Below are positions 1-63,372 of a stretch of DNA of 64,000 bases, piece after piece. Source of the DNA: Hydractinia symbiolongicarpus (Eukaryota); the NCBI RefSeq assembly GCF_029227915.1, contig NC_079879.1:12132720-12196719 (forward strand), read 5' to 3'. A program made the position numbers and the translations under genes. The notes under the pieces are model-generated. The model saw nothing but the letters and a program-made list of their open reading frames with translations, made no database searches and was not told where the DNA came from. Numbering within the stretch: the first letter of the stretch is position 1; each line of letters opens with the position of its first letter.

Positions 1-479
1 CATTAACATAAAATTTTGCGCACGTGGTTTTTCTATTTAATAGAAAAATGTGAGATTTGCAATTTATATAAAATTGATAACTCGTGTTTTTTTTTTAATT
101 TTATTTAATTTCATTTAAAAACGTTTTCGCGATCGATTTTGTTATTATCTGTTAATAGTACTTGATCTGGTTTCCATTCACTGATTGAATGTTTTCTAAC
201 CAACTAAATGTTTTTCTTTACCAGATGGCGGAGGTTAAATATACCAATCTCGATAGGTAATTTTAAAAAGCTATCGCGAATGAATTAATTAATGAAATGG
301 AACATGATGAAATGAGATTAAAAATGAGAATCTTGAAGACGATGAAAACACAGACGCTGTACGGGTAGAGGAAATCATTGCCAAAAGAGTGTGATGTACA
401 TGTAGAATGTTCGGAAAATGACGAAGTACGAATCATAAGCAAAAAAGGTCCCACAGAAGGACCGAAAAGAGAACCCAGA

Positions 480-1203
480 GGAAACTTTGTTTTTCAGCTG
501 AGGAGAAAGACGTCATATTGAGAAACAAAATGCTCACCGATGAATCCATCAACATGGCACAAAATCTACTGCGTAAACAGTTCCCAATATTTGATAGATT
601 CCATGGTACAACGCTTGCGCTGGCTAACGGTTTTGAAAAAATCAAAACATATATATCTGGAAAGTGAAAAAAAAGCTCTGGGAACGAGATTGGCACACAG
701 GATTCCTGCACTGGAATGCATAGCTAATGTGAAACACCCTCCTGAAACAAACAGCATGTGTATCTCTACGATAGTCTAAATTCGAGTACATTTTATGCCT
801 TGGTAACATCCCAAATGGCGGACATGAGCAACTGAAAAGAGAATGTTTTAAATTTTGAGATCGAACAGGTGCAGCGGCAGCTCAATTACGTCGATTGTGG
901 ACTTTTTGCCATGCAACAAGTGTTGCTTTCGCCAAAGATCCGAGGAAACAGAATTACGAAGACGCATCGCTACGTAGCCATTTAGTGAAATGCTTCGAAC
1001 AAAACAAAAAGGAACCTTTCCCAACTGTTAAAAGTAAAATGTTGCATTGCCGAAGAAAATCTACAACGGTTGAATTATTTTGCTCCTATAGAATGCCATA
1101 CTGCAGAAATGATAAAAATGAAGACAAGGATATGGTGGAATGCAACAAATGTCTGGAATGGAAAATGAAACAGAAAATGCAAGCAAAGAAAGCTTGGAGA
1201 TGA
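480..1203 (+). pseudogene. Ulp1/C48 cysteine-protease-like domain remnant with a C-terminal Cys-rich tail; frameshifted and probably transposon-derived
   Basis: Translation across 533-660 gives LTDESINMAQNLLRKQFPIFDRFHGTTLALANGFEKIKTYISG. Translation across 868-918 gives QRQLNYVDCGLFAMQQV, which matches the C48 catalytic signature Q-x-N-x-x-DCG-x-F. ORF 895-1203 ends in CSYRMPYCRNDKNEDKDMVECNKC. The reading frame switches several times, so this is a decayed copy. Confidence 0.5.
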
Positions 1204-1394
1204 AGTGTGAACGTATTTTGGAGCATTTTTGGCTGATTAGAATAAGAGTTATTGCTTTGCAGTATACTGGCTGAACTTGGTTAAATTTTTTTTTTTGCGA
1301 AATTTTGAACCTACCAATGGACTCTTGTAACTAATGTTTTCCATATTAAAGTGCGTACGAATATACAGTTCCTAAGATTGAAGTGTTTTTTTTA

Positions 1395-1497
1395 TCGAAG
1401 TGTCTGCTGCACCGGTACCGGAATCGTACATCGAAAAACTACTGAACCGGTACCGGATTTCTCCGGCTCACAGCTAGTGAACCGGCACAGGATTTTT
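1395..1497 (+). repeat. Left terminal inverted repeat of the MULE element
   Basis: Direct comparison with the reverse complement of 3177-3285. Confidence 0.75.
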
Positions 1498-1794
1498 CAG
1501 CAAAGTTCCTAGTTTTTTGTGTAAAATTTTATTTAGACAACAAAGACGGTAAAATAAGTATTACTAGAAATGGTAATGTTTCATACCCTGGAAAACATCA
1601 ACTTAGAGAGGTTCTTGCGAAATACATGTTTAATCCCTTGACCGTTTGGAACGTTTCAATAGAATGATTCGTTTCAAAGAAGCAAAAGCCTGGTTTCTAT
1701 TTCGTGGATACAACCCCTTGCATATTAAATAAGTAAGCTGTACTGCTTTCATACGCGGAGAAGATATTCTTTTTCGCTGAAGAATTTCATAGTT

Positions 1795-2130
1795 TTGATA
1801 CGGCATCTCGATAGGTATAAATTCACTATGTTGATTAGTTTTGTTGTTGGGGAAAAATTTTCGACTTTTCAAGAATTGAAAACAAAATTAGATACATACA
1901 AAGAGAAAAATTTTGTTGATGACTACGTTAGAGATATTCGAACTGTTAAGGCTTCACAAAAAAGATTGACTAAAATAATAAAACCTGAGCTTCAGTACTA
2001 TGAATTAAAATATGCTTGTGTTCATGGTGGAAGAAAATTCAAAGGAAGAGGCTCTGGACAACAAGTACGTAATTTGTTTACATTAATTAGCGACCCTGTT
2101 TCCAGACCTCTTTATTACTGTGTTCTATAA
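1795..2130 (+). pseudogene. N-terminal (FAR1/MULE-type putative DNA-binding) region of a MULE transposase; a fragment
   Basis: ORF: GEKFSTFQELKTKLDTYKEKNFVDDYVRDIRTVKASQKRLTKIIKPELQYYELKYACVHGGRKFKGRGSGQQ. The spacing of F, S, Y and the KY/C/GR motif resembles the FAR1-like N-terminal domains of Mutator transposases. This is inferred from family knowledge. Confidence 0.45.
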
Positions 2131-2424
2131 AACTGTTTTTTTTTATATTTCTTTAAAGCAAGACTGCAAGTTTTCGCTCGCTTTGCGAGTAAATGAGTCT
2201 GGACAATTTTTAGAAGTAAAAGAATTTCACGCAGACCATACTCATGAATTAAAAAGGGTAGGCAATTTTAATTATCACTTGTCCGAGACTCATCTACCTT
2301 TATCAATAGCTATATAGTTTCATTGAATATATAACAAGATTAAAATCATAATATAAATTATTATTTGCATTTTTTTGTTACTTCTAGGAGCTTTACAGGC
2401 ATTTACCTAACCAGAGAAAGCTAA

Positions 2425-3151
2425 ATGACACTTTGCTTTTATTTTGAGGCCGTCGTTAAGGTTAAAACGACGACGTCATTAGCGCTCACTGAGATAGTAT
2501 TTTTGTGTGTTTACCATTCCTCGCATTTTTTTCTAGATTCCTCAGTTCATTTATGCAGTGACGTTAACGACAATTTCAAGGGTTTATTTTTTCAAGATGA
2601 GGAAATGAAGGATGCGTATGAAGCATATCCAAAATTGATTTGTGTTGATGCTACCTATAAAATAACTGAGCTAAGAATTCCAGTTTACATCATGTTAGTG
2701 GAAGATTCGATGGGGCAACGTCGCGCTTCTTGCTATGGAAGATAAGGAAACATTGTCCTGGTTTTTGGAAACTTTTAAACAAAACAATCCTTCTTCAGAG
2801 AATCTTCGTGTGGTTATTTCGACAAAAAAAAAGATTATCCTTTCGTGGATTGTTGCACTACAACGAGCATCAGACGTTGTTAAAGAAAGTAAAAAGATCA
2901 GCGTCAAGGACAAAGAAGTGTACGATACTTCGCCGACAAACGCTGTTCTTGATGAAAGTGTAAGGCGATATTGTGATGAGCTTGCCTGGAAGAAAGTGGA
3001 AAATATGGTGGCTACACGAAGGAGAAAGCCAAATTGGAGAGGTGCTCAACGTGCCAGCATGTATTTCGCAAGAACCTCTCTAAGTTTTTCAGGGTATGAA
3101 AAATTACCATTTCTAGTAATACTTATTTCATCGTCTTCGTTGTCAAAATAA
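2425..3151 (+). pseudogene. MULE transposase catalytic-domain fragments; frameshifted
   Basis: ORF 2425-2745 contains LICVDATYKITELRIPVYIMLVEDSMGQRRAS, matching the MULE DxTY..N.Y..PL motif. The +1 frame continues with LAMEDKETLSWFLETFKQNNPS (ORF 2735-3151). The domain is split across frames, so it is non-functional. Confidence 0.65.
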
Positions 3152-3176
3152 AATTTTACACAAAAAACTATGGAGT

Positions 3177-3285
3177 TTGCTGAAAAATCCTGTGCCGGTT
3201 CACTACCTGTGAGCCGGAGAAATCCGGTACTGGTTCAGTAGTTTTTCGATGTGCAATTCCGGTACCGGTGCAGCAGACACTTCGA
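3177..3285 (-). repeat. Right terminal inverted repeat of the MULE element
   Basis: Reverse complement matches 1395-1497. Confidence 0.75.
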
Positions 3286-6200
3286 CCTGAAAATGGAGCG
3301 CGTGCTAAAGGTTAAACTAGCTGATCTTCTCGAAACCGATCTAAAGGATGTTGAAGTAATGCAAATTAAGTTGCTGACATCTGAAAGTGTTGAACTCGTA
3401 TACTCCACCAAAAACATTTTTGTCACTGATGTTGTGAAAAAGTGATTAAGTTAAAAGTTTTTTCATTTCATTATTTTGTATTATTTTGTTATGTGGCTGG
3501 TCAACATCAGTTTTGTTATATAAAGTTTAACTAAAAACCATCTCTAAATTGATGTTTCTTAATTTTTGTATCCTCTGCACCAGCCTGCGCATACCATTTT
3601 CGCTGAAAAAACAAAAATCCTTCAGTTTTGTCTCGCTTTGCTTAAGAATAGTTTGTACGTCACTACGCTATTGTTATCTTTTGCATGGTTCTTAATAATT
3701 ACCATGACGTCACTGAAATCGATTGTTTTTCCTAATAATTATGCGGTTCTCATGATTTCATTCTCGATTCTAAAACACAATATAGAGCCCTGCGTTAGTA
3801 GTAGTAGTATTGTGTATTTTTTCGTGAGAGAGAGTTACAAGTTCGTTTATATATACAAGTTTGTATCGTTTTAAAGTAAATAGAGAATATACATCAGCTA
3901 GTAAAATAAAGATCTTAAACCATACGAAAAAAATTAAAAGACTGAGTGGGGAGCTTGCAGAAAGCAATTTTGCCTTATCACTAAGTCCCACAATAAGTTT
4001 CGTTATAGTAGAGAGTTATTATTCGTTGTTGTTGTTTTGGAGATCCTTTGTAATTAACCACTCCCCATCGTAGTTCGTTATGATACGGAAAAGCCGGCAT
4101 GTGGGACCAGGACCCCGGACGCAAAGGTGGGACCAAGAATTCAATTTTTAATAAATATCTTACGGACCGGATTATTATATACAGAAGTGTTAAAACGCAG
4201 ATGATATTAGTGTTTTTGACAATATTTCGCGCGGCAGGAATTTTCAAAAAATAGAAAGAAAAAACAAGACATGAGTGTTGACAAATTTTTGGAAACAAAA
4301 AAGCGTAAATGTAACAAAGAAGCGTGTATAATATGTATAATATTAATAAGCAAAAAACACCTTGCAGAAAGGAACAAGACCGAAACTACCCCAAAATGTT
4401 TCGGAATCACTGTCGCGTTTAAGCTTTTCAAATTATTTTAGCGGAATAACTATCCCAACGCACTGGTACTTTGCGGGGCTCGAACGCATGGTGCTCTGTA
4501 CGTTCGCTCTCCATCTTCGTTCTAATACAATTATTTACAATCGTTTACTAAAATAAATTTGAAGACGCATAGTCATAAAGTTATTTATGAATTATTGTAC
4601 ATAATTTATTAATCTTGCTTACCAAATAAATTGATTATTAATAATTGATTGCATAAACTGATAGGTTACATTGTGTTCAAACACTGCTACCGTTTGTTGC
4701 CGACAGGCTTTCATTGTTATATTGGAAAGGGCCAACACCGGTAATCTAAAAGAGAAGAAAAAGGCCCTGGGATCGAGGTTGGAAAAGGTCAGCGGTAGCC
4801 CTAATAAGCCGACTTCGTGTAAAAGGTCGTGTAGAAACAAAACGAAAACGAAACAGTATTAAACGCTGCTAGATAGTAGCTGGCTGGTTAAATGTTTAGC
4901 ATATGATGAGAATTCAAAAACAGGCTTGGGTATTTTAAATAAACTTTTATTTTTAAGCTAAAAAAATGCTAACCGCATGCTCATAAAAAAAAAAACGATT
5001 TTTAAAAAATTATGAGTTTAGCTGTCAAGGTTTTGAATTAGAAAGGTCATGGTATGGAATAGTGTACGTAAATCATTTGTTGACATTTGACCTTTTTAAC
5101 CACAGACAAAAAAATACAATGTGTTTTATGTTGACCTTTATGCAGAGAAAATCATTCAAAATGTTTTTGTCACAGTAATGAAGATAGAAACATCACTGCA
5201 GGTATTAACATTACTAAAGTAATTTTCAGACTTGTTGTCCTGTTTGTCAGTCTTTTGAAAGTTTAGAAATGACTGGCATTGTGGCTTAAAAATTTACTTA
5301 TCCTCTTGTGTCCAGTGCTTTTTGTAAAAATAAATGCAAGAAAAAGAGTCCTAAAGGTAAAAAGAATGCAAAGTGAAAAGATACTTAAAACAACACAAAA
5401 TATTAAGCTTTTAAGCAATCATGAGCCTCTGATATTTTCTGAGAGAACAAAATAAAAAGCTACAGGCTTAAATCATGTATAAATTTTCAAATCTAATTTC
5501 TTTCATATTAGGATAAGAAGAAGATTATGAATTCTCTTGCAATTCTCTTTAAATAAGTTTTTTTACTTGCAGTTGTTTCTTTAATGACCGCAAAGTAATA
5601 TTAGTATTGACCAGCGATGTTCATAAACACATTTCAGAAAATAAGAACAAAAAAAGTTTTTAAGTTAGCCAACCCTAGCTATCACCTATTGTCTCTTTGT
5701 CATATCAGAACGGGGAGACAAAAATCTCCTTATCCAGATATGGAAAAAGACTCAACAGCCTGGGAACAAGGGGCATAAATGCTCCAAAATAAGAATAACA
5801 AGCCATAAAGCAGATTTTACTGGTTCCTATACTAAACTGTGTATATATATATTACTTTTAAGAATCCATGATGAAAAAAGTTTAAATCAAAATATTGCAT
5901 GATGAAAACATTTTCTTCTTATATAAGCCTTTTTCTATGCACATTGCTTCTTTTAGTAACATGCTGTCCACCCCTTTGCCTGGGTTCTTTTTCACTTTAG
6001 ATGTCAATACAATGTTTCTTTTCTTGCTCATGCTTTTCCAATGTCAAGATGTGACAAACGATCCTGGGCATGAGGTTGACAACTCGTTTCTTGGTATTGA
6101 TTTGTTTCCTTCACTTCAATAGTTCGCATTTTTCTTTAATCTCTTTTTTTTGAACGCAACAAGATGCAGACTCAAATCTTGATTGATGCACAGAACGAGT

Positions 6201-6719: not shown

Positions 6720-7010
6720 TAATGCGTTCTGGCTTCAAATGTGGATTATATGGTTTCAAACCGGTTTATCCACATTGAAGCCAGATATGAAAAAAATTCT
6801 AGCTTTATAATTTCTGAAAATATATAAACTGGCTTCAAATTAGATTCTTCTGGCTTCAAAAGATTGAAAAATGTATGAACTGGCTTCAAGGTGGATTCTT
6901 ATGGTTTCTAAATGCGGCTTCAAGTTGGTTTCTTTGGACTTTGAGAATTCTGGAACTTATGCTAGTGGCTTCAAACTGGCTTCACTCTGGTTTTGAGAAT
7001 TTTGAACTTT
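6720..7010. repeat. Degenerate minisatellite built on the motif (a)ctggcttcaa, about 9 copies, beginning with a 16-bp-stem hairpin
   Basis: The tggcttcaa motif recurs every 25-40 bp. The first copy forms ggcttcaaatgtggat ... atccacattgaagcc. Confidence 0.6.
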
Positions 7011-10000
7011 CAAATTCGATTGGTTTAAGAAAATGTTGAAATTTAAAGGCAAAAGAAACCAAAAAGAATCCACCCATGGCCAAAATTTGGATTTCACTAG
7101 ATTTCGAGATATTTTCAAAGCGAGATTGATATTAAATTATTTGTGCTTGATACAACGACCTATATAGGACAGAAAATCCACTTTTTACAAGAATAAAAAT
7201 AAAAAATAACATTTTGACACAAAAAAATAAATATCTCCTACTAGATCCTTTTCTTTTATCCTCACAAATTCATATTCAAATAAAGGTAATTACAATTGCC
7301 AGTACTTTTAACTGTTTTTTCAATCTCCTTCAACAGTGTTCGGTATGCGTGCAACACATAGAAATTCTTCATTGCCACTAATTAGGAATAATTTTTCTTT
7401 GATATTTTTCGCATTCCCAAAAACTACACTATGACTAAAATATAAAGAACTTATTTAACTACAGTAGCTCCAGAATTACATTGCAAGCAGAAGACAAAAT
7501 AAACAATTTTTGCATTCAAATAGAACACACCATACCTTTCCTCCTGCACTCTCATTAACTGACTACACTTGTACATTGGCAAAACAGACCAGTCATTAAT
7601 TCTTTTTAGTGGATGTCCAACATAAAGCACCATGTTTTTCGTTTTAACATAAATAAAATAATGTAGTATCACCAAAGAAACATCACTATTTTCATTGACA
7701 ACTGCAGCAAAGTTTATTGTCTTTTTGCTTCTTTTATACTCAGTACAGGTGTATGATATGTTTTTTATTTTTAGACGGAGATATTTTTTTCAAAACATCC
7801 GTTACTGTTATATTGAATTGCTTGAGTAAATTAATAGTTGCGTTGGAAGACGGAATTGCTTGAGAAGGATCACCAAAGCAACACCAATCAAGAGTTGAAG
7901 CCCAGCTTTGATATCTAGTAAATGCAATAAATGTGAGTTTGTAAGTTATTTATACATAAGGTTCCTTCAATTTCCTATCAAAAATGATCATTTTATTTTC
8001 TATATGTACTTTCTTGAATGAAGCAATGGACCCAAAAAGTCTTTGACCACCTGACTATTTCCAGACGAATCATTGATTCTATGAATATTCTTCAGACCAT
8101 TCAATGAAATTGAAATCTGAATAAAAAACACATTGAATTTATTAATGCCCAAATTTCTGTTGTTCACACTGGCTGTATTTCAGCATACCTGACAACATCC
8201 ATTTTTTGTTCCATGAATTTGCTTAACCATTCAAGCTTTTCGAACCCAAAGCATGACCATGCCCATAATGGACCCCACCATTTAACATAATTTCACAGAT
8301 GAATTAAATTATGTACATTCAAGCCACTTTTTTCTTCACTATGCTCTATAAATTCAACAGAGCATTTAACATAACTTCCTGCATTTTCACTAATTTAGTA
8401 TCGGTGTTTGCAAGAATTTTGCCCAAATTTTTAAAAAAAAGTGTCCCATGCTTTGCTTCTTGGTATTATGAGTGGCAAATGTTTTATTCCTCGATCATCC
8501 CAAAATTACAGCAAGCTGCAAGAGGCTGGAAGTATACATATACTTTATAGATATTTCTTAAATGTTCCAGTTTCTAGATCTAATTTTTATGTTCCCAGTT
8601 TAAATTTTGTTTAAAATCGTTTTATTTGTAACTGATTTTGTTTCATATTTTCAAAGTTGAAGATTGCTGGATATCAGACAGAAAATGCCAATTTCCATCT
8701 TTTTAAAAAGAAAACAAAAAGTAAGCTCTTTTTCGAGCCTTTTCACAGTGACAACCTGACTGTTATAATTGCTTTATCTAAACTAATAAAGAATGCTATT
8801 TGTCTGACAAAAAATTCGAACCTTAACAATTTTTCAACTTTTTCAAAGATTAAACTATTTTGATATAGCCTTCAACGTACAGTACTTTGTTCAACACTTT
8901 TATAAGCTATTTACTTTTTATCATGACTAGTTAGATTTTCTTTCAATATAGCTTTGAAAAAAGCACTTGAAAGCAAAATAAATTAAAAATATTACATATG
9001 GGACAATTGTAAGTCTTTCAGTTATAAAGTATCTCAGATGTGTGATATTCAGTTTATATTTTCTTTAGGCCCTCTGTTTTGGTCCCATTCGTAACACGAA
9101 ACTGTGTTTTTATTTATCCTGGGTTTTCTTGTAAACAAAATTTATTATAGAGTTTAAATTCTTTATCCACACCAGATATTTTTCTGCAAAGTTGTTTTGC
9201 TTTCTTCTAGTGAAGCTTTTATTAAACTTGATGTACACATGTTTTTTTTATAAGTAACTGGTTGCTACAAAACTGAGGCTGAAATATGGTCAAAAATTAA
9301 GCAACTGCTATGCAACTGCCTAGGCTGAGTTTTGGCAGAGTGGTAAGCAACTTAGGCTGAATTCTACTACACAGTTAGCAACCACTTAGATCAGTCTTTC
9401 GCAAGAAGAATCTGTTCAAAAAATTCCAAAAACATCATTGGTTACTGACCATAACCTTTCTCTGTCCTTGATATTTACTAAATCAGAATGTTTTTCCCAC
9501 ATTTCTATTTGAGTGAAATAAAAAAATAGTTGTAATGTTGATTTACCCTATTTGATGCTATTTTAAACTCATTGCCTGTGTCTGCTTTTTTACTTGCTCA
9601 ATGAGATTCCAGGTTATATTACAGATGCATTTGTACAGATGAAGCAACGATTGAGCAACTTTAAGGCTTAAATTGCAAAAAGGCCTTAGCAACCCCAGGC
9701 TGAACCCAAAAATGCTTATAAAAAAAACCGTGTAACTCACATAAAAAATTTGTGGTCACGACGTGTGGTTTAAAATTGAGCTTTAAAATTGCCAACACAA
9801 AGCAAACATACATTGTATCTAAAGATAACAGGGTAATATTCAAAATTTTTCAACCTTAAGATGTTGACATTGATTTGAAAATTAGGTTGTCATGATACAA
9901 AAAATAAATAGACGGTGGCTGAAATAGGAAACTAGTTTTTGATTTGGCAGCCTGCTGAAATATGCATTGTTATATTAATCTGTGTATATACATGTGAGTG

Positions 10001-10358
10001 AACCTGTGAATTAGAACATGTCATTTTTTAGAAAACGAGATAGAAAAAGTGATGTGTTAAAAATATGTCCCTTTTTACTATATTTACACAGTCCTTTTTT
10101 TACATTATGTTTGAATCTTCCTTTTAAAGACATTGTTTCAGCGTCATTCCAAATGAAATTACTGTGGTCTGACACACTCTCTGCAAATTTAATAAAGTTT
10201 GGTACACTCGTTCCAATGATCTAATTTTATCTTATAATTGATTTAGGAAAAACTAGTAACTAGTAAATCGTATAACTCTAATGTAATGAATTTATTTTTA
10301 TTTATTGTTTAGTGAATAGATAGAAGTTAATAAAAGTCAATGCTGAACAGGTCAAGAG

Positions 10359-13276: not shown

Positions 13277-13478
13277 ACAACTCATGTGATTGTGTCAACA
13301 GCAGAATATGCAAAATCCTCATTTCGATGTGAACGAGCAAGAACATACAACATCCCTGTGATTACTTCTGACTTTCTTAAAAATTGTTTGCTATCACAAA
13401 AGCTGGTTGATTTGGAGCCATATTTAGTCTTCAGAAAGTTGGAGAACAATGAATTGAAGACAGGAAAGATTGTAATTG
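13277..13478 (+). CDS. PARP4: PARP4 exon 2 (BRCT)
   Basis: TTHVIVSTAEYAKSSFRCERARTYNIPVITSDFLKNCLLSQKLVDLEPYLVFRKLENNELKTGKIVI. tttag acceptor and gtatgt donor. Confidence 0.85.
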
Positions 13479-13815
13479 GTATGTTGTGTGTTACACAATT
13501 TTTAGATTTTTTTTTTGTTTATCCTCGCAATGAGGCTCAGTATCGCATGTCAGCCAGAAGCGGAGACCACACAGTACAATTTGAGTTGAGCGGGATTCCA
13601 AGTATTTTATTTTTTACAAAGAAAGTTATTGCAAAACAAAAGATACAGGTTGCTAAGCCTACGGGAGCGCAATACCTTTCTATTTTTAAACTGCTCATCT
13701 ATTTTAATATTTGAGTTTGTAATATTCTTTAACCACTACTTTTAGTAATAAAATAAAAGTATTAAAAGTATTAAAATAAAAAATCTGTAGTAACAAAATT
13801 ATTTTGTTTTTTCAG

Positions 13816-13870
13816 AACATTGTGATGACACAAATATGAGAAAAAGAGAGGTTGATCTTACCAGTCTGAA
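13816..13870 (+). CDS. PARP4: PARP4 exon 3
   Basis: EHCDDTNMRKREVDLTSLK. The phase joins exons 2 and 4. Confidence 0.6.
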
Positions 13871-14385
13871 GTTAGTATTTTATGTCATTTTTTTCTATTA
13901 ATTTCTTCAAATTTTAAAACAGAAAGTAAACTTGTTTGTATTTTTGTGACAGTCAAAATGAAATTTTTTAAAATAGTTTCATGTGATTACGTTAAAAAAG
14001 CTTTTGGAATACCAATTCATTTTAGGATATGTTGTAAATTTCTTTCCGATTTTCCCACCGCAGCCTTTTATATGTAATAGACTGCCTTGTCAAAATTGGT
14101 GTACATTTTTATCCATGTAGTTCATTTGTTGTTTGCTATAAAAACCTTAAATATGTTATTTGAAAAACTAAAAAGAAAAATAATTAAACTTGGTAGAGTT
14201 AATAGTTACTTTTTTATGAAGCAACTAAAATGACAAACTGTGACAGAAAACAAGTTTAAAATGTTGGTTTTTTGTCTTAAAATTTTTATTATTTTTTATC
14301 AATTTGCAACATGAATCAATTAAAACAGTTTTAACTTAGTTTTATGTGTATTTTTTAAAACCTTAAAACTGTATTTTGTATTTAG

Positions 14386-14458
14386 AATCTGGTCAGACAA
14401 GGTAGATGGACCTTGGAAGAATACTCCTTTTGAAGTTCCAAAATATGTGCTTTTAAAG
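14386..14458 (+). CDS. PARP4: PARP4 exon 4
   Basis: IWSDKVDGPWKNTPFEVPKYVLLK. tttag acceptor and gtaact donor. Confidence 0.65.
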
Positions 14459-14546
14459 GTAACTTTGAGAGTCTAAACTTTACAGTAACTTTATATGTTT
14501 TATTTCAAAGATAGCTCTGTTACTGTTAACATGTGATTTTACTTAG

Positions 14547-14666
14547 GAATCTCCGAAACAGGAGGAAACCTCTTTTCATTTATTCGAGTTGCATGTGCAA
14601 GTTGATGAACAAAACAATAAGAAGTACAGAGTATGGCATCAATATGGAGGTCATTTGTATTGCAAG
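14547..14666 (+). CDS. PARP4: PARP4 exon 5
   Basis: ESPKQEETSFHLFELHVQVDEQNNKKYRVWHQYGGHLYCK. gttagt donor. Confidence 0.65.
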
Positions 14667-15483
14667 GTTAGTTGTTACGATTTGTTTACCTGCACCAAAC
14701 TGCTATAAATGTGTTAATAACACAGCCGATCCAACATTATAGACTTTTCGTCCGCCTTAAGGTGGGACAGATAATCTTGCATTATCACTTTTATTTTAAA
14801 GCAAAACAGCTTTTATCTTAGAAATTATTATAAATCAGCTTAAAAAAGGACAATGAAAAAAAGTACAGTATTATGACTATAGACAATCATTGTATGAGAG
14901 CTGAAAGATTAGGGAAAAAAATCTTGCAGCAAACTCTTGTTACTTTAAGCTGTATAGATTATACGCAACGAGAAATGGTTGGTGAAAACAAAAATAAAAA
15001 GAAAGAATAAGCCTGTCTCTCTGACACATTAAAACCACTAATGTGAAAGCAAGCCTAAACTATGACTTTCGACAATTTCTTTTGATGTTTGAAACTTTGT
15101 AAAAAGCTCATACTTAACTAATTGTGTCCATTCAAGTCACCCCTTGCCTCCTGTCCTTTTTTAAAATAGAGGGAACCACTTAGTATGTTTATTTTCAGAT
15201 TCAAATACTGTGGTAAGGGAGCAACAGAAAAGTAAAACAGTATTTTTGCTAAAAAACAATGAATGTATCACAGTCTACAAAATATTGTATAAGCAACACA
15301 GAATCTGCATTCTCAAGTGACACTTAACTTTGCAGTGTCTTATTCTTATAAATAGATGACGATAGTCTTTCTTGCATTCTTGTTTGCAGAAATGCCTTGA
15401 TCCTATGTGCACAGATGAATAATGTTAAAAATTTATTAATAATTAATTCTGTTCTATCAAACTATTAATTTTTTTTAATGTAG

Positions 15484-23149: not shown

Positions 23150-23234
23150 GTTGTGGTTCTTCAAGCATACACAAATGAAAGCACTGAAGCTATTGAAGCC
23201 AAATACGTTTTTCCTATGGACAGTATGGCAGCAG
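23150..23234 (+). CDS. PARP4: PARP4 exon 17 (VIT)
   Basis: VVVLQAYTNESTEAIEAKYVFPMDSMAA, compared with human VIVFQTYTNKSHVPIEAKYIFPLDDKAA. Confidence 0.85.
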
Positions 23235-23340
23235 GTTTGTGTAATTAAAAAATTATTTTTAATGTATTACAATAACAATGTAGTGATTTTTATTTGCGTA
23301 TTAATTAATGGATGTTTTAACTTATTCTTTTATCCTGTAG

Positions 23341-23480
23341 TGTGTGGTTTCGAAGCGTTTATTAATGGTAAACACATAATCGGTCAGGTAAAAGAAAAAG
23401 AACAAGCACGAAAAGAGTACAAGGAAGCCATTAGCAAAAGTCATGGTGCTTATCTTATGGAAGAACAAGAAGAACAAGCT
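23341..23480 (+). CDS. PARP4: PARP4 exon 18 (VIT)
   Basis: VCGFEAFINGKHIIGQVKEKEQARKEYKEAISKSHGAYLMEEQEEQA. Confidence 0.9.
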
Positions 23481-23641
23481 GTAAGATAAACAAATCTATT
23501 AGGATTTATAACTTTTCTCCTTGTATTACGTAACACGGTTTTACTGAGGTTTTTATGTAGTCAAAATGGATGCATCTGAGATCAAAATTACGTACTGTAT
23601 TTTTAAAACTAAACACTCAAATTCATGATTGGTCTTTGCAG

Positions 23642-29349: not shown

Positions 29350-32185
29350 TTTATAAAGAGGGCGGATCTAGGGTTAGGCAGCCTAGGCAATTGCTTAAGC
29401 CTAATTTTGTGGCCGTAGAAAAAACATTCTTTAGATAGAATAATTCATAAAAAACAGAATTATTTTGTAAATTTGTTTTTGGCATCCCGCTCATTACGAC
29501 ATCATGCACTGCGGCGTTTTATCATTTTTTTTATCATTGATATTTTACTCAAAAACAAACCCGGGGCGATCTTAGGCAAAAATGTCGATTCGCCTAAAAC
29601 GTCCGCGGGTTTTGAAGTTTCGAATGAATGAAAATCACAGATGGAAGAAAAAACGCCTAAAAAGTCCGCGGGGTTTCAAGTTCCAATGAATGAAATATTG
29701 AAATGGGAAGAAAAACCGCCTAAAACGTCCGTGGGTTTTTAAGTTTAAACGCCTAAAACGACCACGGGTATGGTTACATGGACGACAAGTGGATACTTCT
29801 TTTTCAACATGGGTTAGCTGTGTCCGAAGCACCTCAAGTGGCTAGAATAAATCAAAGCAATTGTATGCTAGCTAAGTTAAATGAAGAAGTTTTGAGTTTG
29901 GAAACCCTTTCAGATATTAAAAGGATTGGAAATGCTGGAGGGAAGTATTGTTGCCACGTGCGCCATGTTGTTGTCTTAAACCAAACCTTCATCCTGCCTC
30001 TTCAAAAGATAATAAATACATTACTTGAAGTAAGTAATACTTCATATATTTTAGTTTTTACTGCTGCTGGATTTAAGGCACTTTTGTGTCAAGAACTATT
30101 CTCAAAAGTGGTAAATCACCAGATGTTCTTACAAAACTTGTGATTTAAAAAATCTCTTTCTTATCAAAACAAAAGGTTTTAACTTGACCTCGATCAAATG
30201 GATTGTTTGTTTTTTAAAGCCCAATGCTAACTGAGGCAATTTATGTAAACACTGTCTTGGAGGTCAAAAAATGTTTGGAGGTGTATGTTCAGTTTGGTAT
30301 AGAGTATTGCTAAGCTGCATGTGCATTAGTTGGAATTTTGTTAGTTTTTTGTTTATTGTCTTAAGGTCAAAGGCTTCGTGTAGCCGTTTATGCAACTGTG
30401 TATCTTTGTGTCCGTGTGGAAAAGGAATAATTCTTGTAAGATAGCTAAGGGACAGCTCTTTCATAAACGCAAAAGTTTAAGCTAAATGTAAATAGGTCTG
30501 TAGGTCCCCTTTCCCTGGGGATTTACAGATAGGTAATATATTCGAATGTTGTCAGTCCCTGAAATCATACGCACTCGGATATGTGCTCCTGTTAAGCAGG
30601 TAGACGACAACAAGTTCAAAATACTTTCTACAATATGAGATATACTTAAACGTCAAAGGATTCTACCTCGTCCCAATGCAAATTTACGTTTAGCATATAC
30701 TTTTCGATTGTGAGTGTCCCTAAGAACTTTAACTTTGTTGGAACTTTTAAACAGTAGATTTTATATACAACATTCTACTGCGCATTTTAAAATATTTTAA
30801 GAACACAAGGAGATCCTTAACGTTCCCACGCTGCTTTTAATTGTGATAAAATTGCTAAAAACAAAAGAATGAAACAATACCTAATTTAAGAATAGTCCAA
30901 GTTTGTTGTATAATATTTCTTCTTTTTTGTTGAGCAATACAACATATATAATTTTGTTTTAGGAATAGATATATTGATGTCAGCCATGATTAATATTCTT
31001 CTGACAATGAAAATCACCATCAATTAAAGAACACAGGAGATTCATTATGAATCCTTATAATATTGGAAAACTGTAAACAATGGATATATATTTATATATC
31101 AAATGGATGGGTATGATATCAAAATAACTTGTACTGATAGAAATGATTTTCACGTAAAATGATACAGATCGAAACAAGAATTGCATGTTAAAGAACGTTC
31201 TGCTACAAACCAATGAAAATGTCATGTTAACTTATGCATATGAGTAGAATGTGTATATATATATGTTGCTTTTTATATGAGAATCTTCAAAATTGACCTA
31301 GTTACTAAAACTTTTTTAAAAATTTCGACTCTTACTTTTAAACATAGTTGACAGGGGCATGTGAGGGTAAATAATATGCAGACATGTTAAATGTTTTGAT
31401 GTTATTTTTCTTGATTCCAACTCTTTTCTGGCTTAATAAAGTACTCAACTTTTGTGGAAATTTTTTAACAATAAAATTAATGCTTAATAGAAATTGGTGC
31501 GAAACTACACCAGTAACCTTAATATTAAAAAATATTAACTTCATAAAGGGGTAACTACTATATACTTTTTGTAGTCGTTTATTATACGTTGCTATCTTAC
31601 ACATGCTTTTGTTTTTGCATTTGCAGGTTGTTAGCACAGGCTGTAATTTTCCAAACAATAATTCTACGTTGCATTGCTGTTGACTATCTATTCCTAAAAT
31701 TGTCTTGTAATGTAATTTTTTGTTGTATTATTAGCTATTAGACTTATTGCATATTTTGAAATAAAGTAACTCCCCAAATTTGTAACTTGGCGATTACTTG
31801 TACTCGTATTAAATGCATAAAACGTAAAAAAGATGCTTAGATGATACCAGTGTGGTATGTCATTCAAAGGAACTATGGCAACGCTAACCCTGTTTCGAGT
31901 CTAATTTACCAAACGGAGTTTTCCATCCGCATGTTTTAGCGAGGATAACAGTGTTAAACTACGGAGGTTACTTTTATTTATTGGGCTATAAAGACACTTT
32001 CGTTTCTAATCTAGGAAGAATTTTTAATAACTAAAAACCTCACTTTTGGAACGATTTTAGCTCCTTTTATAATAAAAACACAAAACGGCCGCTTCACCTT
32101 GTACAACACCACAACCCTTGATATTACTTTGCAAAAAAATCTGTCCAGTTTTGCCTAACCAGAAAAAAATCCTAGATCCGCTCCT
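29350..32185. mobile_element. Possible TE-like insertion bounded by an imperfect short inverted repeat; contains the 60-bp tandem repeat and a 121-aa orphan ORF (29778-30143, +)
   Basis: gcggatctagggttaggca at about 29353 is the reverse complement of tgcctaacc...cctagatccgc at about 32155-32185, as an 11-mer plus an 8-mer. The ORF sequence is MDDKWILLFQHGLAVSEAPQVARINQSN...CCHVRHVVVLNQTFILPLQKIINTLLE. This call is weak. Confidence 0.25.
29575..29770. repeat. Tandem repeat with a unit of about 58-60 bp and roughly 3.5 copies
   Basis: The unit cgcctaaaacgtccgcgggttttgaagtt-cgaatgaatgaaa...ggaagaaaaaa repeats at about 29575, 29640, 29700 and 29748. Confidence 0.7.
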
Positions 32186-62583: not shown

Positions 62584-62745
62584 CTGAAAATGTAAATTTT
62601 TAATGAGCTTTTGCAGGACAGAATCTCATTCATAGCACTCTTTTCTTCTTACTTTACCATCAACCCTGAATGCGTGGTTCTGGACTTTTTGATATAAGAG
62701 ACTAAGGACCTTCACATTCTATTTAAAGCTTTTAAGTTCTCCTAC

Positions 62746-62994
62746 CGTACGAGTATTTACTGGACAATATTTTCTGTTCAAGCACGTAAGGATTCCAATA
62801 TGCTCTATTTTTCATTGTGAAATCAAGATGAGCTCCCCACGAAAAATGAATCATGCCGAAATGAACACCATCCTGACCAACTTTGAATTCCTTGGTCAAA
62901 TCCACAACAAATTGTTTGACTTTTCTGTAATTTTTAGAAGTCACGCTTGTTGAAGCATCTGTGATGACACCGATCTCTAATTTTTTCTGGCAAA
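62746..62994 (-). CDS. vWA-domain N-terminal exon of the TSR/vWA gene
   Basis: VCQKKLEIGVITDASTSVTSKNYRKVKQFVVDLTKEFKVGQDGVHFGMIHFSWGAHLDFTMKNRAYWNPYVLEQKILSSKYSY. cttttag acceptor and gtagga donor on the minus strand. Confidence 0.7.
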
Positions 62995-63372
62995 CTAAAA
63001 GATAATTTTTTAATGTTGTAACTAAAGGATAATTGTTATTCCTATTATTATATTTTGCACATGATAGCATCTTCAGTTCCAAATGGTAATGTTATTAATG
63101 AAGGTGCTGCAAAGAGAGTCTTAGTACAGTTAAAACTCCCATTTAAAAGCAATATTTGTTGTGATATGCTTGTCACTGAAGAGTGCTGTCGATCGCTAGC
63201 ATTATTTTCGTATTTTATGTATGAGAGCTAGCAATGGTAAAATTGAGTTTCGTATTTTTCATTTTGGAAAAAAAGAACCGCGAAAATTTCTCTTTGCAAT
63301 AATTAATCCCTTAAGATTATCATCAAGCCCATTACTGAGTGTGCACTTTGTTTTGTTATCAAATAAACTTAC

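What the first reader, a model, noticed from the sequence alone, without database searches (positions are those of the whole stretch)
430..3290. A Ulp1-protease-like remnant lies immediately next to a decayed MULE: a possible animal MULE that captured a Ulp1 protease
The MULE (105-bp TIRs, transposase DATYK...PL motif split by frameshifts) starts at 1395. A frameshifted Ulp1/C48 domain with the QxNxxDCGxF catalytic signature plus a Cys-rich tail ends at about 1203, 190 bp upstream and in the same orientation.

In plants, Mutator-like elements that carry Ulp1 protease domains are a known class (KI-MULEs, CUMULE-type). Here the two sit side by side in an animal genome.

Either a larger ancestral element extends leftwards beyond the window with both ORFs, or the TIR-bounded MULE inserted next to an unrelated Ulp1-bearing repeat. 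No target-site duplication is visible for the TIR-bounded unit.
Basis: partly seen in the sequence, partly recalled or inferred. Interest (0 to 1): 0.5.

Follow-up and report, generated by a model that had tools for sequence, protein, structure and literature searches.

The report
Two dead Mutator transposon remnants
The Ulp1-protease fragment is the decayed tail of a Mutator-type transposase gene of a kind already reported from Hydra, and the inverted-repeat-bounded element next to it is a separate, internally deleted Mutator copy from a different lineage, so this is ordinary transposon debris.

Summary
A decayed Ulp1 (C48) plus partial PHD coding remnant lies at about 414-1161 on the + strand, with 5 frameshifts and 2 stops. 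It sits 191 bp upstream of a 1.9-kb MULE at 1395-3285. The MULE's TIRs are 234 bp, not 105 bp, and it has no target-site duplication.

The remnant's closest relatives place this Ulp1-PHD module at the C-terminus of MULE transposases, after the SWIM finger. This is seen in one polypeptide (Hydra vulgaris XP_047131872.1, 1065 aa; P0115, 1100 aa; P0036) and in 6 of 6 genomic copies examined. No integrase, hAT or other transposase partner was found among 64 long relatives. So Ulp1-bearing animal MULEs exist, but they were already reported for Hydra and lancelet (Bao, Kapitonov and Jurka 2010).

The adjacent TIR-bounded MULE is not the carrier:
- The remnant lies outside its TIRs, on the 5' side, whereas intact proteins carry Ulp1 at the 3' end.
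- No Ulp1/PHD trace lies between the TIRs.
- Its transposase is about 91% identical to Hydractinia-type fragments but only 22-29% identical to Ulp1-bearing transposases.
- Its nearest near-complete relative (L006) ends without Ulp1.

The best reading is two independent dead MULE remnants, side by side by chance or by nesting. Interest is low.

The parts
414..529 (+). Remnant of the acidic/basic linker that precedes the Ulp1 domain in MULE-SWIM-Ulp1-PHD transposases ('SENDEVRIISKKGPTEG...RKLCFSAEEKDVILRNK'). One frameshift at about 462. By eye, acidic linker-like sequence extends back to about 303.
   Evidence: Frameshift-aware alignment to the C-terminal half of P0036 starts at nt 414. The same 'RKLCFS.EEK..IL' junction occurs in L001, L004, P0036 and P0015. 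blastn of 479-595 matches L001 9950-10066.
530..1040 (+). Decayed Ulp1 / peptidase C48 catalytic domain. It has 4 frameshifts (about 674-692, 715, 760, 911) and 2 in-frame stops (665, 833). Catalytic codons are retained: His 709-711, Asp 770-772, Gln 872-874 and 878-880, Cys 896-898.
   Evidence: Family profile i-E 7e-25 (530-913) and 6e-26 (898-1191). Identity is 54.5% to P0001 and 44% to P0036. The family profile matches Ulp1-like, SENP8 and SENP1 structures. Pfam C48 alone gives E 0.002.
1075..1161 (+). Partial PHD finger ('ELFCSYRMPY...MVECNKCLEW'). The second Cys is mutated to Tyr, and the domain is truncated after 'CLEW'. The unrelated reading frame runs on to the stop at 1201-1203.
   Evidence: Alignments. 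PHD (PF00628) is found in 49 of 64 long relatives. The family profile matches the PHF2, PHF8, DIDO and BPTF PHD fingers at about E 5e-10.
1204..1394 (.). 191-bp spacer between the Ulp1-PHD remnant and the MULE left TIR. It resembles neither the MULE nor its flanks, and no terminus of the older element is recognisable in it.
   Evidence: Sensitive blastn (word size 7) gives only chance-level hits. Self-blastn finds nothing.
1395..1628 (+). Left terminal inverted repeat of the non-autonomous MULE. It contains two copies of the palindrome CCGGTACCGG (1412-1421 and 1447-1456).
1828..2064 (+). MULE transposase exon 1, the N-terminal part of the ZSWIM3_N / FAR1-like (WRKY-GCM1 type) DNA-binding domain. 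It is followed by a GT..AG intron at 2065-2158.
   Evidence: The Pfam ZSWIM3_N match (7e-20) runs as one stretch across the spliced junction. Splice sites were read from the sequence.
2159..2257 (+). MULE transposase exon 2 ('QDCKFSLALRVNESGQFLEVKEFHADHTHELKR', the end of the DNA-binding domain). It is followed by a GT..AG intron at 2258-2387 and a short exon-3 fragment at 2388-2429.
2536..2827 (+). Fragment of the MULE RNase H-like (DDE) core, including the first catalytic-Asp motif 'VDATYK'. It has a frameshift and small deletion at about 2719. Internal deletions remove about 50 codons before it and everything after 'NLRVV' (second Asp, CxFH motif, SWIM finger and C-terminus).
   Evidence: 90.7% identity to residues 53-154 of P0178. 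81% identity to Hydractinia XP_057309122.1. Pfam ZSWIM1-3_RNaseH-like 5e-24.
2828..3057 (.). Unassigned sequence between the deletion breakpoint and the right TIR. It has no Ulp1/PHD signal.
   Evidence: The family HMM on the six-frame translation finds nothing here.
3058..3285 (-). Right terminal inverted repeat of the non-autonomous MULE. CCGGTACCGG occurs at 3259-3268, and a one-mismatch copy at 3224-3233.

Best explanation
Two separate, dead Mutator-superfamily (MULE) remnants lie next to each other in a hydrozoan, probably Hydractinia, genome.

(1) Positions about 414-1161 are the pseudogenised 3' end of a MULE transposase gene of the type 'DNA-binding domain - DDE/RNase H core - SWIM finger - long linker - Ulp1 (C48) protease - PHD finger'. 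The upstream exons lie left of the window or are lost.

(2) Positions 1395-3285 are an independent, non-autonomous MULE of a different lineage (ZSWIM3_N-type). It has 234-bp TIRs, two introns, at least two internal deletions and a frameshift. Neither remnant can function now.

In intact relatives the Ulp1-PHD module is part of the transposase polypeptide. It is not a separately captured gene between the TIRs.

Shown here: the domain order, the conservation of the catalytic His/Asp/Gln/Cys and of the PHD cysteines across the family, and the multi-copy state in Hydra.

Inferred only: the PHD finger, which by sequence resembles the PHF2/PHF8/BPTF fingers that are known H3K4me3 readers (my own knowledge, not tested), would tether the transposase to chromatin. 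The protease would remove SUMO or a related modifier from chromatin, repair or silencing factors at the transposition site, as Bao et al. 2010 proposed for Ulp1/OTU domains of transposases.

The missing TSD of element (2) is best explained by a later flank deletion or by recombination between copies. This too is inferred.
For: Nearest relatives of the remnant:
- P0001 (49-54% identity) lies in L001 directly after a SWIM-finger exon, in the same frame with a single TGA between them. MULE DDE exons lie further upstream on the same strand.
- The SWIM exon sits immediately upstream of Ulp1 on the same strand in 6 of 6 copies in L001-L005, and L005 also has the DDE exons. The frame is continuous in L004 and in the second L001 copy.

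Single polypeptides with the full architecture:
- P0115: ZSWIM RNaseH/MULE 115-245, SWIM 428-455, C48 918-1009, PHD 1051-1098.
- P0081, which is Hydra vulgaris XP_047131872.1: ALS2CR8 7-165, MULE 235-322, SWIM 520-547, Ulp1-PHD 828-1061.
- P0036: SWIM 46-79 followed by Ulp1-PHD.

Other support for the MULE parentage:
- Among 64 long relatives, the only transposase-type partner domains are SWIM (12), MULE (2) and ZSWIM (2). None has an integrase, hAT or THAP domain.
- 36 of the 64 share the SWIM-linker N-terminal region of P0036.
- All the best blastp hits of the remnant with known context are SWIM/MULE-linked.

Separateness of the two window elements:
- The remnant is outside the TIRs and 5' of them.
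- No Ulp1/PHD lies inside the MULE.
- No DNA similarity links the two.
- In L001 versus Hydra P0081 the three modules co-diverge (MULE 38%, SWIM 26%, Ulp1 35%). In contrast, the window Ulp1 is 49-54% identical to L001's, while the window MULE family (P0178) is only 29% identical to L001's core.
- L006, 40-41% identical to P0178, ends after the SWIM finger and linker, with no Ulp1 on the contig.

Literature: Ulp1 in Mutator transposons of Hydra and lancelet (PMC2836005).
Against: - The left part of the Ulp1-bearing gene is off the window, so no SWIM or DDE sequence is seen in cis.
- Window 1-300 looks non-coding, so the remnant may be 5'-truncated and not simply cut by the window edge.
- No TIR pair enclosing both a MULE core and Ulp1 could be shown in any relative. 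The link rests on shared reading frames and polypeptides, not on element termini.
- No full-length autonomous copy of the TIR-bounded family from the same genome was available. Its lack of Ulp1 is inferred from a 40%-identical relative and from a rate argument.
- 28 of the 64 long relatives have N-terminal regions with no recognisable transposase domain.
- The function of the Ulp1-PHD module is untested.
Confidence: 0.75

Rival explanations
1. Same family, two copies. The autonomous form of the TIR-bounded MULE family also ends in Ulp1-PHD. The remnant at 414-1161 would then be the tail of an upstream copy of that same family, arising by tandem, nested or local-hop insertion, with its right TIR lost or replaced.
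For: Both pieces are on the same strand and 191 bp apart. Both belong to the ZSWIM1/3-like MULE clade in which Ulp1-PHD tails occur, and P0115 combines a FAR1/ZSWIM3_N-like N-terminus with Ulp1-PHD. The missing TSD indicates rearrangement at the junction. No full-length copy of the family from this genome could be examined.
Against: - No TIR-like sequence follows the Ulp1 stop, and no third TIR copy occurs anywhere in the 64 kb.
- The remnant carries 5 frameshifts and 2 stops and is 44-54% identical to its best relatives. The MULE core is about 91% identical to expressed or annotated Hydractinia-type fragments, which suggests very different ages.
- The divergence pattern points to different lineages.
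- L006 lacks Ulp1.
Confidence: 0.12
2. The Ulp1-PHD remnant comes from a non-MULE transposon. The obvious candidate is a Ginger1 (integrase-type) element, which in Hydra also carries a C-terminal Ulp1, in one family with PHD. Another Ulp1-bearing class is also possible.
For: Bao et al. 2010 list Hydra Ginger1-4 to -10 and -12 with Ulp1, and Ginger1-9_HM with Ulp1 plus PHD. They align these domains with those of Mutator transposases. 28 of the 64 long relatives have unclassified N-terminal regions.
Against: - None of the 64 long relatives has an rve/integrase, GPY/F, hAT or THAP domain.
- Every close relative of the window remnant with known context is SWIM/MULE-linked.
- The window keeps the family-specific linker junction 'RKLCFSAEEK', which is shared with SWIM-containing proteins.
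Confidence: 0.05
3. The remnant is a stand-alone pseudogene and not the end of a transposon copy. It could be a 5'-truncated duplicate or retrocopy, or a decayed domesticated Ulp1-PHD gene.
For: Window 1-300 shows no coding similarity to the SWIM-linker region. Many database relatives are short stand-alone ORF calls of 200-300 aa. NCBI annotates Hydractinia LOC130625987 as a 205-aa protein.
Against: The short ORF calls examined in context all had SWIM exons directly upstream. The remnant is heavily disabled, with 5 frameshifts and 2 stops. The family is multi-copy.
Confidence: 0.06

Closest known systems
Hydra (and lancelet) MuDR-type transposons encoding Ulp1 (Bao and Jurka, Repbase Reports 2008 and 2009; cited in Bao, Kapitonov and Jurka 2010, PMC2836005). 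Represented here by Hydra vulgaris XP_047131872.1 / LOC124810909 and its paralogues.
   Same: The C-terminal module is the same: a C48 protease with the H/D/Q/C residues, followed by a PHD finger, behind the SWIM finger of a MULE transposase. The host is a cnidarian and the family is multi-copy. The window remnant aligns over the linker, Ulp1 and PHD.
   Different: The window copy is only the decayed tail, 24-35% identical to the Hydra protein's module. It is closer (49-54%) to unnamed relatives on ENA eukaryotic contigs. The Hydra protein has an ALS2CR8-type N-terminus. The N-terminus of the window remnant's parent is unknown.
Plant Ulp1-bearing MULEs: KI-MULEs of Arabidopsis (Hoen et al. 2006) and CUMULE of melon (van Leeuwen et al. 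2007), as cited in PMC2836005
   Same: A Mutator-superfamily element associated with a C48 (Ulp1) protease domain.
   Different: From my own knowledge, not tested here: in the plant elements the ULP1-like sequence is an additional gene between the TIRs, and KI-MULEs lack a transposase. In the animal family the protease and PHD are fused in frame to the transposase C-terminus. No close sequence relationship to the plant domains was tested.
Ginger1 DNA transposons of Hydra with C-terminal Ulp1 (one family with PHD) (Bao et al. 2010)
   Same: The design is the same: a transposase with a C-terminal Ulp1 protease and a PHD finger, in a hydrozoan.
   Different: The Ginger1 catalytic part is a Gypsy-like integrase. 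No integrase domain was found in any of the 64 long relatives of the window module, which instead carry SWIM or MULE.
ZSWIM1/ZSWIM3-type MULE transposases (Pfam PF21599, PF21056, PF21600), for the TIR-bounded element
   Same: ZSWIM3_N DNA-binding domain (7e-20) and ZSWIM1-3 RNase H-like core (5e-24). Long TIRs as in many MULEs.
   Different: From my own knowledge, ZSWIM1 and ZSWIM3 are single-copy vertebrate host genes. The window element is TIR-bounded, internally deleted and frameshifted, so it is a transposon fossil. Its 9-11 bp TSD is missing.

Membership tests
Mutator superfamily (MULE), TIR-bounded element 1395-3285 | Long terminal inverted repeats | tested here: met
   234-bp TIRs at about 92% identity.
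Mutator superfamily (MULE), TIR-bounded element 1395-3285 | MULE-type DDE/RNase H-like transposase with an N-terminal WRKY/FAR1-type DNA-binding domain | tested here: met
   Pfam ZSWIM3_N 7e-20, ZSWIM1-3_RNaseH-like 5e-24, MULE 1.5e-5 (25.8 bits against a cut-off of 27.6) and FAR1 0.014. Only the first Asp motif survives. The second Asp, the CxFH/E region and the SWIM finger are deleted.
Mutator superfamily (MULE), TIR-bounded element 1395-3285 | 8-11 bp target-site duplication | tested here: not met
   The flanks are TTTTTTTTA and CCTGAAAAT, with no shared k-mer of 5 or more bases in the 30-bp flanks. This is attributed to a later rearrangement. It does not outweigh the TIR and transposase evidence.
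Peptidase C48 (Ulp1/SENP), remnant 530-1040 | Sequence homology to the C48 catalytic domain | tested here: met
   Pfam on the remnant alone is sub-threshold (E 0.002, 18.4 bits against 20.7). The family it belongs to (i-E 1e-25) carries PF02902 in 43 of 64 long members and matches Ulp1-like, SENP8 and SENP1 structures at E 7e-5 to 1e-3.
Peptidase C48 (Ulp1/SENP), remnant 530-1040 | Catalytic His-Asp-Cys triad plus oxyanion Gln | tested here: met
   The H (LHW), D (YDS), Q (VQxQ) and C (DCG) columns are invariant in A3 and A5, and the codons are retained in the window at 709-711, 770-772, 872-880 and 896-898. The reading frame is broken, so no active enzyme can be made.
Peptidase C48 (Ulp1/SENP), remnant 530-1040 | Isopeptidase activity on SUMO or a related modifier | not testable with these tools
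   No biochemical data. Substrate specificity (SUMO, NEDD8 or other) is unknown for this family.
Animal MULE transposases with a C-terminal Ulp1-PHD (Hydra MuDR type) | Ulp1-PHD in the same polypeptide or reading frame as the MULE DDE core and SWIM finger | tested here: inconclusive
   Met in relatives (P0115, P0081, P0036, L001, L004). In the window only the linker, Ulp1 and partial PHD are present. The SWIM and DDE parts would lie left of position 1 and cannot be seen.
Animal MULE transposases with a C-terminal Ulp1-PHD (Hydra MuDR type) | One TIR pair enclosing both the transposase core and Ulp1 | tested here: inconclusive
   No convincing enclosing TIRs were found in L001 or L007. The contigs are short or the copies decayed.
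Ginger1 (integrase-type) transposons with Ulp1 | Gypsy-like integrase (zinc finger, DDE, GPY/F) upstream of Ulp1 | tested here: not met
   No rve or integrase domain in any of the 64 long relatives. SWIM exons lie upstream in all 6 genomic copies.
Plant KI-MULE / CUMULE | Ulp1-like gene carried as a separate ORF between the MULE TIRs | tested here: not met
   In the window the Ulp1 remnant is outside the TIRs, and nothing Ulp1-like lies inside them. In animal relatives it is fused to the transposase and is not a separate ORF.

The most novel reading that the evidence does not exclude
The two remnants could still be products of one undescribed Hydractinia MULE family, of ZSWIM3_N type, whose autonomous copies carry the Ulp1-PHD tail. 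Its deletion derivatives would then land next to parent copies by local transposition. More broadly, the catalytically conserved Ulp1 plus PHF2/PHF8-like PHD module is very abundant (over 1000 representative clusters at E<1e-30) and sits on at least two different MULE N-terminal architectures. It could be a mobile, chromatin-targeted deSUMOylase cassette that transposases exchange and use to counter SUMO-dependent silencing.
Probability: 0.1. Interest if true: 0.4.

Novelty: new member of a known kind. Interest (0 to 1): 0.2.

Why it matters
It matters little for this locus, because both elements are dead and the class was already recorded for Hydra and lancelet.

The value lies in annotation:
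- The Ulp1-PHD fragment should be labelled as the tail of a MULE transposase, not as a host SUMO protease or a gene captured by the neighbouring MULE.
- The neighbouring 1.9-kb element is a clean example of a non-autonomous ZSWIM3_N-type MULE, with 234-bp TIRs and a paired CCGGTACCGG motif.

More generally, the searches show that the protease-PHD fusion to MULE transposases is widespread and catalytically conserved, yet almost unstudied. Only one open-access paper in the library mentions it. It would be a reasonable target for functional work on how transposases interact with SUMO pathways.

Tried and rejected
- Other copies of either repeat in the 64-kb window: none found.
- A splice-site reading of the 'tttgtttttcag' before AEEK, as an intron between the SWIM exon and Ulp1: rejected. 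P0036, L004 and a second L001 copy read straight through 'RKLCFS' as coding. The L001 stop is therefore a mutation.
- A possible PHD-tail trace ('ERCSTC', 'YCDELAW') in 2830-3090, inside the MULE: rejected by the family HMM on the six-frame translation.
- Extending the window leftwards, or finding sister copies, by exact-protein look-up: nothing on record for the window ORF 2735-3151, P0177 or P0015.
- Exact search for the TIR core in JGI metagenome contigs: 0 hits.
- Enclosing TIRs in L001 and L007: only short, chance-level inverted repeats.
- SWIM-linker profile against the window: no hit.
- Literature search for ALS2CR8 with transposase: no paper.
- All three homologous-protein searches and the single exhaustive representative search were used, so full-length relatives of the TIR-bounded family could be sought only through the one JGI scan, which returned L006.

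Full report
**What is in the sequence**

The window is AT-rich eukaryotic DNA (GC about 0.29-0.35). A long inverted repeat bounds a 1,891-bp unit at 1395-3285. Arms 1395-1596 / 3084-3285 are 202 nt at 94%, and arms 1600-1628 / 3058-3086 are 29 nt at 100%. Each TIR carries two copies of the palindrome CCGGTACCGG, 35 bp apart. This motif occurs nowhere else in the 64 kb (expected 0.05), and I take it as a candidate transposase-binding site (inference). There is no target-site duplication: the flanks are TTTTTTTTA and CCTGAAAAT, and the 30-bp flanks share no k-mer of 5 or more bases. Neither repeat has another copy in the window.

**The TIR-bounded element**

Splicing out two GT..AG introns (2065-2158 and 2258-2387) gives a conceptual protein. 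It hits Pfam ZSWIM3_N (7e-20, one stretch across the splice junction), ZSWIM1-3_RNaseH-like (5e-24), MULE (1.5e-5) and FAR1 (0.014).

Its nearest database protein is Hydractinia symbiolongicarpus XP_057309122.1, at 81% identity. A 265-aa cluster member, P0178, aligns to nt 2536-2827 at 90.7% identity, with one frameshift and small deletion at about 2719. The window copy lacks about 50 codons before 'SSVHLC'. It also lacks everything after 'NLRVV', where the intact proteins continue 'MADKDLNERE...LICLFH...'.

It is therefore an internally deleted, non-autonomous MULE of the ZSWIM1/3-like clade, probably in a Hydractinia genome.

**The Ulp1 remnant**

Pfam C48 on my reconstruction is only E 0.002, below the gathering score. 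The word-indexed protein search found P0001 (237 aa, C48 plus PHD) at E 1.6e-52. A profile of twelve relatives (A3) hits 530-913 (i-E 7e-25) and 898-1191 (i-E 6e-26) in two frames, and nothing else in the window.

A frameshift-aware alignment places the remnant at nt 414-1161. It has five frameshifts (about 462, 674-692, 715, 760 and 911) and two in-frame stops (665 and 833). Identity is 54.5% to P0001 and 44% to P0036.

The catalytic His, Asp, Gln and Cys columns are invariant in the family, and their codons survive in the window. The Cys-rich tail is a PHD finger, cut off after 'CLEW' and carrying a Cys-to-Tyr change. At family level the profile matches the PHF2, PHF8, DIDO and BPTF PHD fingers (about E 5e-10) and Ulp1-like, SENP8 and SENP1 proteases (E 7e-5 to 1e-3) among solved structures.

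**Which element the Ulp1-PHD module belongs to**

- Genomic context. I examined five loci around relatives. In L001 the + strand carries, in order, a MULE DDE exon (6992-7537), a 'CDFH' exon (7790-8146) and a SWIM-finger plus acidic-linker exon (9002-9949). After a single TGA in the same frame comes '...KKP*RKLCFSAEEKEVILGSQMLTDESIN', the Ulp1-PHD ORF.
- The window junction. The window has the same 'RKLCFSAEEKDVILRNKMLTDESIN', preceded by a similar acidic linker.
- Recurrence. tblastn shows the SWIM exon immediately upstream of Ulp1, on the same strand, in 6 of 6 copies in L001-L005. L005 also has the DDE exons. L004 and a second L001 copy read through without a stop.
- The wider family. The exhaustive profile search found 1022 representative clusters at E<1e-30. 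Among the best 150, 64 are at least 378 aa long with Ulp1-PHD at the extreme C-terminus.
- Partner domains. Pfam scans of those 64 give PHD (49), C48 (43), SWIM (12), ZSWIM RNaseH (2), MULE (2) and ALS2CR8 (3). None has an integrase, hAT or THAP domain.
- Full-length examples. P0115 (1100 aa) has the full order DDE core, helical domain, SWIM, C48, PHD. P0081 (1065 aa) has ALS2CR8, MULE, SWIM, Ulp1-PHD. P0081 is Hydra vulgaris XP_047131872.1, with several paralogous loci at 90% identity or more.
- Shared upstream region. 36 of the 64 share P0036's SWIM-linker region. The window remnant's best hits with known context are all SWIM/MULE-linked.

The Ginger1 rival raised by the literature has no support here.

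**Is the neighbouring TIR-bounded MULE the carrier?**

The evidence says no.

- The remnant is outside the TIRs and on the 5' side, whereas in intact proteins Ulp1-PHD is C-terminal.
- Nothing Ulp1- or PHD-like lies within 1395-3285.
- No DNA similarity links 1-1394 to the MULE or to its right flank, and no third TIR exists.
- The lineages differ. Between L001 and Hydra P0081 the modules co-diverge (MULE core 38%, SWIM 26%, Ulp1 35%). Yet the window Ulp1 is 49-54% identical to L001's, while the window MULE family (P0178) is only 29% identical to L001's core and 22-24% identical to P0081 and P0115.
- The nearest near-complete relative of the TIR-bounded family, L006 (40-41% identical to P0178), encodes core, SWIM and a basic linker, then stops. 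There is no Ulp1 anywhere on the contig.
- The ages look different. The remnant is heavily decayed, while the MULE core is about 91% identical to annotated Hydractinia-type fragments.

These last points are inferential. A same-family explanation keeps about 0.12.

**Mechanism**

Nothing here can act now. For the intact ancestors, three things are shown: the transposase-SWIM-linker-Ulp1-PHD fusion, the conserved catalytic residues, and the multi-copy state. What the module does is inferred. The PHD finger would tether the protein to chromatin, and the protease would remove SUMO or a related modifier from repair or silencing factors. This follows the suggestion of Bao et al. 2010 for Ulp1/OTU domains of transposases. 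The missing TSD is best explained by a flank deletion or by recombination between copies (inference).

**Comparison with what is known, and novelty**

Bao, Kapitonov and Jurka (Mobile DNA 2010; PMC2836005) state that the Ulp1 domain is encoded in Mutator transposons of hydra (Repbase Reports 2008) and lancelet (2009), as well as in plants. They also align the Ulp1 and PHD domains of Ginger1 and Mutator transposases. It is the only paper in the library that combines MuDR, Ulp1 and Hydra. Dupeyron et al. 2019 do not list it.

The kind is therefore known, though little studied. The window adds a decayed member in another hydrozoan. It differs from plant KI-MULE/CUMULE in that the protease is fused to the transposase and is not carried as a separate gene.

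**Verdict**

These are two independent dead MULE remnants. I rate the novelty as 'new member of a known kind' and the interest as 0.2.

Noticed in passing
P0081 (Hydra vulgaris XP_047131872.1) residues 7-165; also P0102 and P0120 (not in the window): An ALS2CR8 / CARF (calcium-responsive transcription factor) domain (Pfam E 1e-28 to 2e-31) sits at the N-terminus of the Hydra MULE-SWIM-Ulp1-PHD protein P0081, where MULE transposases normally carry their DNA-binding domain. It is also in P0102 and P0120, where Pfam detects no MULE core. NCBI names truncated paralogues 'calcium-responsive transcription factor-like'. This suggests that the CARF DNA-binding domain is, or derives from, a MULE transposase DNA-binding domain. 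No paper in the library combines ALS2CR8 with transposase.
   Followed up: partly
window 13286-13714 (+), 23151-23489 (+), 62732-63082 (-): Host-gene exons. There is a weak BRCT_2 match (E 3e-4) and a clear VIT domain exon (E 1.5e-13) on the + strand, which could be a vault-PARP (PARP4)-like gene. There is also a VWA domain exon (E 2e-9) on the - strand. The transposon remnants therefore lie upstream of, or within, a normal intron-rich gene region.
   Followed up: partly
window 3251-3445 (+): A 64-aa ORF starts inside the MULE right TIR and runs into the right flank ('...MERVLKVKLADLLETDLKDVEVMQIKLLTSESVELVYSTKNIFVTDVVKK'). It has no Pfam match, and its origin is unknown.
   Followed up: partly
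window 29591-29745: A tandem repeat with a 63-bp unit, 2.5 copies and 82% matches.
   Followed up: no
L001 15534-16841 and L003 11564-13339: Genes with the Pfam 'Mutator' domain (PF20700) lie 1-5 kb downstream of the Ulp1-PHD ORF, on the same strand, in two of the five relatives' loci. L001 also has a DDE_1 gene at 13320-14405. This may be chance in TE-rich DNA or a recurrent association.
   Followed up: no
L001 1019-3731: A second, more decayed SWIM-linker-Ulp1-PHD copy lies 6 kb upstream of the first on the same 18.6-kb contig. It shows that the family is repetitive in that genome.
   Followed up: partly
L002 10016-14763: In this relative the Ulp1-PHD coding sequence is split by an insertion of about 3.7 kb. 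Ulp1 profile positions 1-107 lie at 10028-10348, and the rest at 14055-14763.
   Followed up: no
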